Assembly (NCBI RefSeq): GCF_051903065.1
Contig: NZ_CP178438.1
Reading direction: 5' to 3' (one strand)
From: Escherichia coli
GTDB lineage: Bacteria > Pseudomonadota > Gammaproteobacteria > Enterobacterales > Enterobacteriaceae
DNA: 64,000 bases
The notes under the pieces are model-generated. The model had not been told where the DNA came from and ran no database searches. It saw only the letters and a program-made list of their open reading frames with translations. The translations under genes and the position numbers were made by a program. This document shows positions 16,500 to 16,645 of the stretch, one piece after another; position 1 is the first letter of the stretch, and each line of letters opens with the position of its first letter.

Positions 16500-16515
16500 T
16501 GCATCTTTTATGCCA
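16500..16515 (-). promoter_or_regulatory. sigma-54 (-24/-12) promoter of fdhF
   Basis: Minus strand reads TGGCATAAAAGATGCA with GG and GC spaced as in TGGCAC-N5-TTGCA; about 50 bp upstream of fdhF ATG. Confidence 0.7.
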
Positions 16516-16645
16516 CATTTTATTTGGGGTCATTCCCTGATATTACGGGCACTATTTATTCAAAACTCTGACGAAAAACAGGCTGTCGTCAGTTTTGACG
16601 TGACGAAACGAAATACCGCGTGACAGCCATCACGCGGCAGACATT

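What the first reader, a model, noticed from the sequence alone, without database searches (positions are those of the whole stretch)
16500..16640. fdhF sigma-54 promoter with upstream repeat cluster (candidate FhlA activator sites)
A -24/-12 element TGGCAT-N5-ATGCA lies on the minus strand at 16500-16515. Some 85-135 bp further upstream there are TGACG/CGTCA-rich repeats (16585-16610) and an 8 bp arm palindrome ccgcgtga-N6-tcacgcgg (16616-16637). Their position fits an enhancer for the formate-responsive activator FhlA, and the region directly abuts the mdtP stop codon.
Basis: partly seen in the sequence, partly recalled or inferred. Interest (0 to 1): 0.35.

Follow-up and report, generated by a model that had tools for sequence, protein, structure and literature searches.

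The report
Known fdhF sigma-54 promoter and enhancer
This is the long-studied control region of the E. coli formate dehydrogenase H gene (fdhF): a sigma-54 promoter with an upstream activator-binding repeat cluster, and the nearby palindrome is mainly the terminator hairpin of the neighbouring mdtP gene, so the finding is real but ordinary.

Summary
All three sequence features exist at the stated coordinates. The window is the E. coli mdtP–fdhF intergenic region, 100% identical to sequenced strains and one base different from K-12.

- **Promoter.** TGGCATAAAAGATGCA (16515-16500, minus strand) is the published fdhF sigma-54 promoter. It is the ChIP-seq site OS41 and is listed among known sigma-54 promoters. 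It is kept in 76 of 80 orthologous upstream regions.
- **Repeat cluster.** The TGACG/CGTCA cluster is the most conserved intergenic block. Its spacing to the promoter is fixed at 90 nt, or 81 nt, one helical turn less. Its hexamer TCGWCA is also enriched upstream of hyc/hyp and hydN. This fits the known FhlA enhancer.
- **Palindrome.** The 8-bp palindrome is best read as the intrinsic terminator of mdtP. It occurs in all 12 loci where mdtP ends next to it and is missing elsewhere. It shows compensatory and G·U changes. Only its promoter-proximal arm (GTCAC, 16624-16620) is conserved without mdtP, so that arm may be a distal enhancer half-site.

The original FhlA footprint papers could not be read. 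Novelty: already known. Interest: low.

The parts
16500..16515 (-). sigma-54 (-24/-12) promoter of fdhF, TGGCATAAAAGATGCA; GG at 16514-16513, GC at 16502-16501
   Evidence: Sequence. Only TGGCA-N7-TGCA match in the window. Conserved in 76/80 orthologous upstream regions with per-base identity >=0.9. Identical to ChIP-seq site OS41 (PMC4591121) and to the known-promoter list (PMC2831329).
16487..16491 (-). predicted transcription start, about 16489 (12 nt downstream of the -12 C), giving a 5'UTR of about 41 nt
   Evidence: Inferred from sigma-54 geometry. It agrees with the 'distance 41' given for the fdhF site in PMC4591121. Not mapped here.
16585..16607 (-). enhancer (UAS) core TTCGTCACGTCAAAACTGACGAC; holds the inverted repeat CGTCA-N4-TGACG and the first TTTCGTCA copy; about -118 to -96 from the predicted start
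   Evidence: Most conserved intergenic block: CGWCACGTCA-N4-TGWCGA together with the sigma-54 motif in 72 of 81 distinct orthologue sequences. Best local hit of the published FhlA matrix. Hexamer TCGWCA shared with hyc/hyp, hydN and hyf upstream regions.
16568..16578 (-). proximal enhancer repeat TTTTTCGTCAG (second TTTCGTCA copy, 32 bp from the first, same orientation); about -89 to -79
Evidence: Identity 0.8-0.99. Fixed 31-nt offset from the core in 69/72 orthologues. Two of the six TTTCGWCA matches in 64 kb lie here.
16620..16625 (-). distal conserved TGTCAC, a candidate third enhancer element; it is also part of the 3' arm of the hairpin; about -136 to -131
   Evidence: GTCA[CT] lies 16-20 nt upstream of the core in 63/72 orthologues, including those with no hairpin and no mdtP. 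Identity 0.7-0.8 amid unconserved flanks. FhlA contact is inferred, not shown.
16614..16639 (-). intrinsic terminator hairpin of mdtP (stem CCGCGTGA/TCACGCGG, extendable to 11 pairs), followed by the tail TTTCGTTTCG
   Evidence: Only terminator-like site in 16200-16900. Folds at -21.1 kcal/mol, z -3.0. In 12 loci with an adjacent mdtP, 94.9% of cells are paired, 3 pairs show compensatory changes, and there are G·U wobbles. No comparable tight hairpin around the GTCAC element in the other loci.
16646..16648 (-). mdtP stop codon (TAA)
   Evidence: ORF 16646-18112 on the minus strand; annotated mdtP in E. coli.
16446..16460 (-). fdhF ribosome-binding site GGAG (16460-16457) and ATG start codon (16448-16446)
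   Evidence: Sequence; K-12 annotation; SD region conserved.
16537..16548 (-). conserved spacer block CCGTAATATCAG between enhancer and promoter, role unknown
   Evidence: Identity 0.7-0.9 over 81 sequences. Only a poor match to the IHF consensus by eye. Not followed further.

Best explanation
The segment 16449-16645 (minus-strand sense) is the regulatory region of E. coli fdhF, which encodes formate dehydrogenase H.

- **Promoter.** RNA polymerase with sigma-54 binds the -24/-12 element at 16515-16500 as a closed complex.
- **Enhancer.** The formate-sensing enhancer-binding protein FhlA binds the repeat cluster about 80-120 bp upstream of the start. The cluster is the core TTCGTCACGTCAAAACTGACGAC at 16607-16585, the repeat TTTTTCGTCAG at 16578-16568, and possibly GTCAC at 16624-16620. 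FhlA then contacts the polymerase by DNA looping and uses ATP hydrolysis to open the promoter.
- **Palindrome.** The palindrome at 16616-16637 is mainly the RNA hairpin of the rho-independent terminator that ends mdtNOP transcription just before the enhancer. Its 3' arm was built on the conserved distal GTCAC element.

Shown here: the identity of the locus, the motif positions, their conservation and phasing, the hairpin covariation, and published sigma-54 binding. Inferred: which bases FhlA touches, the start site, and actual termination.
For: **Locus**
- 100% identity over 301 nt; found in 5419 of 5426 E. coli genomes between mdtP and fdhF. K-12 annotation agrees.
- SECIS_2 at 15982-16036 scores 87 bits.

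**Promoter**
- The same sequence is reported as a sigma-54 ChIP-seq site for fdhF (PMC4591121), as a known sigma-54 promoter at -67..-50 (PMC2831329) and as a gSELEX holoenzyme peak in the fdhF/mdtP spacer (PMC8743547).
- The Salmonella orthologue TGGCATAAAACATGCATA is bound in ChIP-chip and up-regulated 29-fold, with FhlA listed as its activator (PMC3844500).
- Conserved in 76/80 orthologues. No sigma-70-like promoter.

**Enhancer**
- The core and proximal repeat are near-invariant in 71-81 distinct sequences.
- Core to proximal repeat is 31 nt in 69/72. Core to TGGCA is 90-91 nt in 64/72 and 81-82 nt in 8/72, one helical turn apart. Promoter to ATG varies from 51 to 84 nt.
- The pentamer cluster is the densest in the window (2/200 simulations).
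- TCGWCA/TGWCGA occurs 3, 3, 2 and 1 times upstream of fdhF, hyc-hyp, hydN and hyf, against a background of 1.4 per kb.
- The literature says FhlA binds upstream of fdhF and hyc (PMC11291172) and that enhancers usually lie 70-150 bp upstream (PMC3844500).

**Terminator**
Against: - The 16-mer FhlA consensus quoted from Leonhartsberger et al. 2000 (CATTTCGTACGAAATG; PMC4987338) has no match within 3 mismatches in the window.
- The published 14-nt FhlA matrix scores the best local site, CGTCAAAACTGACG, at only 8.4 of 18 bits, rank 97 in the window. The exact recognition unit therefore stays unclear.
- The original deletion and footprint papers (Birkmann & Bock 1989; Schlensog et al. 1994; Leonhartsberger et al. 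2000) are not in the library.
- The terminator's U-tract (UAUUUCGUUUCG) is interrupted and weak, and no 3'-end data were available.
- The orthologues are related species, so conservation counts are not independent events.
Confidence: 0.92

Rival explanations
1. The whole 8-bp-arm palindrome (16616-16637) is a DNA binding site for a dimeric protein. The protein could be FhlA itself or another regulator, acting as the distal part of the fdhF enhancer.
For: - A perfect inverted repeat at about -127 to -148, within the usual enhancer range (PMC3844500).
- Its proximal arm holds a GTCAC that is conserved at a fixed 16-20 nt from the core in 63/72 orthologues.
- Several Enterobacter and Pluralibacter loci carry GTGAC-N15/16-GTCAC at the same place.
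Against: - The distal arm is not conserved (identity 0.1-0.5).
- The tight hairpin is found only where mdtP ends immediately upstream (12 of 12 such loci).
- Variants keep RNA pairing but break DNA symmetry: U·G in Escherichia sp. E1V33 and G·U in S. arizonae.
- Loop length varies (6-7 nt in most loci, 14 in Superficieibacter). A dimer site would not tolerate this.
Confidence: 0.12
2. The TGACG/CGTCA repeats are the site of a regulator other than FhlA, for example a CRE-like TGACGTCA-binding or nitrate/oxygen-responsive factor. On this reading FhlA binds elsewhere.
For: - ACGTCA/TGACG resembles half-sites of unrelated regulators.
- The quoted FhlA 16-mer consensus does not match here.
- A further conserved block of unknown role lies at 16548-16537.
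Against: - The same hexamer family clusters upstream of the other FhlA-dependent promoters hyc/hyp and hydN.
- The cluster is phased to a sigma-54 promoter, which needs an enhancer-binding protein (PMC3844500).
- FhlA is the only activator reported for fdhF in the papers read.
Confidence: 0.04
3. The motifs are chance matches with no function, and fdhF is driven from a sigma-70 promoter.
For: The sigma-54 pattern by itself is no rarer than chance in the window.
Against: - No sigma-70-like promoter in 16200-16900.
- Conservation in 76/80 orthologues.
- Published sigma-54 binding at exactly this sequence.
Confidence: 0.01

Closest known systems
E. coli fdhF promoter and upstream activating sequence (Birkmann & Bock 1989, Mol Microbiol 3:187, cited in PMC7759655; sigma-54 site OS41 of PMC4591121)
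   Same: It is the same locus. The promoter sequence, gene, neighbour (mdtP) and distance to the ATG (-67..-50) are identical, and the intergenic region differs from K-12 at one base.
   Different: Nothing material differs. The published UAS limits and footprints could not be read here, so the overlay on window coordinates rests on conservation, not on the mapped contacts.
hycA-hypA divergent sigma-54 promoters with shared FhlA enhancers; hydN and hyf promoters (E. coli formate regulon)
   Same: TGGCA-N7-TGC promoters (a looser -24/-12 match at hydN), with clusters of TCGWCA/TGWCGA and TTTCG(T/A)C words roughly 30-100 bp upstream.
   Different: The arrangement differs. fdhF has CGTCA-N4-TGACG plus two direct TTTCGTCA copies 32 bp apart. 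hyc-hyp uses TGTCGA/TCGACA words with other spacings. fdhF has TCGTCA where most orthologues and hyc-hyp have TCGACA.
Enhancers of other sigma-54 activators, e.g. three NorR sites (GT-N7-AC) upstream of norV, and NtrC sites at glnAp2
   Same: Several repeated half-sites about 70-150 bp upstream of a -24/-12 promoter, acting by looping (PMC2831303; PMC3844500).
   Different: A different recognition sequence and a different activator. Here the spacing to the promoter changes only by whole helical turns.
Rho-independent (intrinsic) terminators at the ends of bacterial operons
   Same: A GC-rich stem-loop 8 nt after the mdtP stop codon, followed by a T-rich tail, with covariation in the stem.
   Different: The T-tract is interrupted. 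The 3' arm and tail overlap sequences that belong to the next gene's enhancer.

Membership tests
sigma-54-dependent promoter | GG and GC doublets separated by 10 nt (TGGCAC-N5-TTGCA-type -24/-12 element) | tested here: met
   TGGCATAAAAGATGCA at 16515-16500; 2 mismatches to the consensus, with the GG/GC doublets and spacing exact.
sigma-54-dependent promoter | Correct orientation and position upstream of a gene, conserved in orthologues | tested here: met
   67 nt upstream of the fdhF ATG on the coding strand. Present in 76/80 orthologous upstream regions, per-base identity >=0.9.
sigma-54-dependent promoter | Bound by sigma-54 holoenzyme; expression depends on rpoN | tested here: met
   Checked in the literature, not by experiment here: ChIP-seq site OS41 (PMC4591121), gSELEX peak (PMC8743547), known-promoter table (PMC2831329), and Salmonella ChIP-chip plus 29-fold regulation (PMC3844500).
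sigma-54-dependent promoter | Mapped transcription start about 12 nt downstream of the GC | not testable with these tools
   Start predicted at about 16489. No primary start-site data could be read.
FhlA enhancer (UAS) of the formate regulon | Repeated elements about 70-150 bp upstream of the sigma-54 promoter | tested here: met
   Conserved elements lie at about -79 to -136 from the predicted start. The expected range comes from PMC3844500.
FhlA enhancer (UAS) of the formate regulon | Sequence shared with other FhlA-dependent promoters | tested here: met
   TCGWCA/TGWCGA is enriched upstream of fdhF (3), hyc-hyp (3) and hydN (2), with 1 upstream of hyf, against 1.4 per kb background.
FhlA enhancer (UAS) of the formate regulon | Match to the published consensus CATTTCGTACGAAATG (Leonhartsberger 2000, as quoted in PMC4987338) | tested here: not met
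   No match within 3 mismatches. Only half-site-like ATTTCGT/TTTCGTC words are present. The 14-nt matrix of PMC7658346 gives a weak best hit at 16587-16600.
FhlA enhancer (UAS) of the formate regulon | Direct binding of FhlA (footprint, gel shift) and loss of formate induction on deletion | not testable with these tools
   The primary papers are not held. Secondary sources state that FhlA binds upstream of fdhF.
Intrinsic (rho-independent) terminator | GC-rich stem-loop followed by a U-rich tract, just downstream of a stop codon on the same strand | tested here: met
   11-pair stem with 6 GC pairs, tail TTTCGTTTCG, 8 nt after the mdtP TAA.
Intrinsic (rho-independent) terminator | Stem kept by compensatory or wobble changes; present only where there is an upstream co-oriented gene to terminate | tested here: met
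   94.9% of cells paired, 3 pairs with changes on both sides, G·U variants. Present in all 12 loci with an adjacent mdtP. No comparable hairpin around the GTCAC element in the others.
Intrinsic (rho-independent) terminator | RNA 3' ends mapped at the U-tract | not testable with these tools
   No Term-seq or 3'-end data were available.

The most novel reading that the evidence does not exclude
The mdtP terminator and the fdhF enhancer physically overlap. The 3' arm of the terminator hairpin is the distal GTCAC enhancer element, and its U-tract (ATTTCGTTTCG) runs into the FhlA-type TTTCGTC repeats. Lineages that placed mdtP next to fdhF would then have built a terminator out of enhancer sequence. 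FhlA occupancy and mdtNOP read-through could influence each other.
Probability: 0.25. Interest if true: 0.25.

Novelty: already known. Interest (0 to 1): 0.08.

Why it matters
It matters little as a discovery. The fdhF sigma-54 promoter and its formate-responsive FhlA enhancer have been textbook material since the late 1980s. The check has three modest uses. It corrects the role of the palindrome, which is the terminator of the upstream operon rather than an activator site. It also gives a comparative map of the enhancer across about 80 enterobacterial species, with invariant core, fixed 31-nt and 90/81-nt spacings, and an unexplained conserved spacer block. That map could guide promoter engineering for hydrogen or formate biotechnology.

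Tried and rejected
- **Chance tests of the sigma-54 pattern.** It is not enriched on its own, and one pattern with the wrong spacer length missed the site. Significance was therefore taken from conservation instead.
- **Published FhlA matrix (PMC7658346).** The scan was weak and unspecific; the best local hit ranks 97th in the window.
- **FhlA 16-mer consensus.** No match within 3 mismatches.
- **Primary footprint and deletion papers.** Full-text searches and look-ups by id failed: Skibinski 2002 (PMC135417), Leonhartsberger 2000 (PMID 10848985) and Hopper & Bock 1995 (PMC176951) are not held. A search for the UAS sequence string in papers returned only promoter tables.
- **Nearest-ORF heuristic for upstream neighbours.** It was noisy because of spurious ORFs, so the tblastn result with MdtP was used.
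- **Rfam.** No RNA family lies in the intergenic region.
- **IHF site in the conserved spacer block.** Considered, but the consensus match by eye is poor, so it is left unexplained.
- **Sigma-70 promoter for fdhF.** None found.
- **Tool errors.** All were rerun.

Full report
**What is there.** On the minus strand the window reads: the end of an ORF (16646-18112, stop TAA at 16648-16646), a 197-nt spacer, then an ORF starting ATGAAAAAAGTCGTCACGGTTTGCCCC at 16448. A 301-nt query across the spacer is 100% identical to E. coli chromosomes and is present in 5419 of 5426 complete genomes. In those records the flanking genes are annotated mdtP and fdhF. K-12 MG1655 has the same gene order and differs from the window at one spacer base, 16524. 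The downstream ORF has an in-frame TGA at 16031-16029, followed by a SECIS_2 element (87 bits, above the Rfam gathering score). It is therefore the selenoprotein formate dehydrogenase H.

**Check of the observation.** All three features are at the stated coordinates.
- TGGCATAAAAGATGCA lies at 16515-16500 on the minus strand, with GG-N10-GC spacing.
- CGTCA/TGACG pentamers start at 16587, 16596 and 16601, with a fourth at 16569.
- The palindrome is perfect, CCGCGTGA-N6-TCACGCGG, with arms at 16616-16623 and 16630-16637.
- The promoter pattern alone is not rarer than chance in 64 kb.
- The pentamer cluster (4 in 45 bp) is the densest in the window and was matched in only 2 of 200 Markov simulations.
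- The hairpin folds at -21.1 kcal/mol, z = -3.0.

**Promoter.**
- The identical sequence is the sigma-54 ChIP-seq site OS41 assigned to fdhF and flagged as previously confirmed (PMC4591121).
- It is listed among known sigma-54 promoters at -67..-50 from the ATG (PMC2831329). That is exactly the offset found here.
- The fdhF/mdtP spacer gives a holoenzyme gSELEX peak (PMC8743547).
- The Salmonella orthologue TGGCATAAAACATGCATA is bound in ChIP-chip and up-regulated 29-fold, with FhlA named as the activator (PMC3844500).
- I fetched 80 loci that encode close FdhF relatives from different enterobacterial species. Of these, 76 keep TGGCA-N7-TGC within 120 nt of the start codon.
- No sigma-70-like promoter is found in 16200-16900.
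- From the sigma-54 geometry the start is predicted at about 16489. This agrees with the 41-nt distance given in PMC4591121.

**Enhancer.** A MAFFT alignment of 81 distinct upstream sequences and an anchored consensus of 71 show four conserved blocks in the spacer:
- TTCG(A/T)CACGTCA-N4-TGACGA at 16607-16585;
- CTGTTTTTCGTCAG at 16581-16568, followed by GTTTTG;
- CCGTAATATCAG at 16548-16537;
- the promoter itself.

The geometry is rigid:
- core to proximal repeat is 31 nt in 69/72;
- core to TGGCA is 90-91 nt in 64/72 and 81-82 nt in 8/72, one helical turn less;
- promoter to ATG, by contrast, drifts from 51 to 84 nt.

Conservation of helical phase between an upstream cluster and a sigma-54 promoter is what a looping enhancer requires (general mechanism: PMC3844500).

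The hexamer TCGWCA/TGWCGA occurs three times here, three times in the hycA-hypA spacer, twice upstream of hydN and once upstream of hyfA. The background is 1.4 per kb. These are the other members of the FhlA regulon. Secondary literature states that FhlA binds upstream of fdhF and hyc (PMC11291172).

The fit to published FhlA motifs is imperfect:
- the 16-mer consensus quoted from Leonhartsberger et al. (PMC4987338) has no match within 3 mismatches;
- the 14-nt matrix in PMC7658346 gives only a weak best hit, CGTCAAAACTGACG at 16600-16587.

I could not read the original deletion and footprint papers. The claim that these exact bases are FhlA contacts therefore stays an inference from conservation, phasing and shared words.

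**The palindrome.**
- Its distal arm (16630-16637) is not conserved across the 81 sequences (identity 0.1-0.5). The GTCAC in its proximal arm (16624-16620) is conserved (0.7-0.8).
- GTCA[CT] lies 16-20 nt upstream of the core in 63/72 orthologues, most of which have no hairpin.
- tblastn with MdtP shows that mdtP ends directly upstream only in Escherichia, Salmonella arizonae, some Kluyvera, Superficieibacter and Pseudocitrobacter.
- All 12 such loci (the window plus 11 fetched loci) have a tight hairpin at this place (MFE -15.7 to -20.3 kcal/mol). Loci without an adjacent mdtP show no comparable tight hairpin around the GTCAC element.
- On an alignment of the 12, 94.9% of cells pair and three pairs show changes on both sides, for example G-C to A-U in S. 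arizonae and K. cryocrescens. There are also G·U/U·G variants, which keep an RNA helix but break a DNA palindrome.
- Loop length varies: 6-7 nt in most loci and 14 in Superficieibacter.
- The consensus scan calls it the only terminator-like site in 16200-16900. It is on the mdtP strand, with the tail TTTCGTTTCG.

The best reading is therefore an intrinsic terminator for mdtNOP. Its 3' arm reuses a conserved distal element of the fdhF enhancer. Whether that element is a real FhlA contact is not shown.

**Comparison with what is known, and verdict.** This is the known fdhF promoter/UAS itself, not a relative of it. The existence of the defining paper, Birkmann & Bock 1989, was confirmed through the reference list of PMC7759655. 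Novelty: already known. Interest: low. The only mildly new points are the terminator/enhancer overlap, the one-helical-turn spacing variants, and an unexplained conserved spacer block.

Noticed in passing
window 15982-16036 (-): Rfam SECIS_2 element (87.1 bits, gathering score 70), directly after the in-frame TGA (16031-16029) of fdhF. This is the known selenocysteine insertion signal.
   Followed up: partly
window 13337-13400 and 13443-13513: Two naRNA4 (REP-type repeat) matches in the gltP-yjcO spacer. One is above the Rfam gathering score, at 75.2 bits.
   Followed up: no
window 16537-16548 (-): The block CCGTAATATCAG between enhancer and promoter is conserved at 0.7-0.9 identity across 81 enterobacterial sequences. 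Its role is unknown and it matches the IHF consensus only poorly by eye.
   Followed up: partly
loci L004-L083, upstream of fdhF (match at 2501): The distance from enhancer core to TGGCA is 90-91 nt in 64/72 orthologues and 81-82 nt in 8/72. The variants differ by one helical turn. The distance from promoter to ATG is free to vary, 51-84 nt.
   Followed up: yes
window 16469-16481 / 16497-16509: An imperfect inverted repeat (13 nt, 77%) joins the -12 element to the early 5'UTR. One arm lies upstream of the predicted start, so the pair cannot form in the mRNA. It is only moderately conserved.
   Followed up: no
L042, L076, L080 (about 2170-2260): In Raoultella, Entomohabitans and Leclercia loci the gene upstream of fdhF is divergent. 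It starts MKP(V/A)I(L/M)VVDD, which looks like a response regulator, and there is no terminator hairpin. L076, L080 and L083 also lack a strict -24/-12 match.
   Followed up: no
Enterobacter/Pluralibacter-type loci, e.g. L064, L011, L074 (about 2290-2330): An inverted pair GTGAC-N15/16-GTCAC lies upstream of the enhancer core where E. coli has the tight hairpin. The spacer is too long for a terminator stem. The meaning is unknown.
   Followed up: no
window 16524: This is the only difference from K-12 MG1655 in the 197-nt spacer (T in the window, G in K-12, plus strand). It lies in a poorly conserved part between the spacer block and the -24 element.
   Followed up: yes
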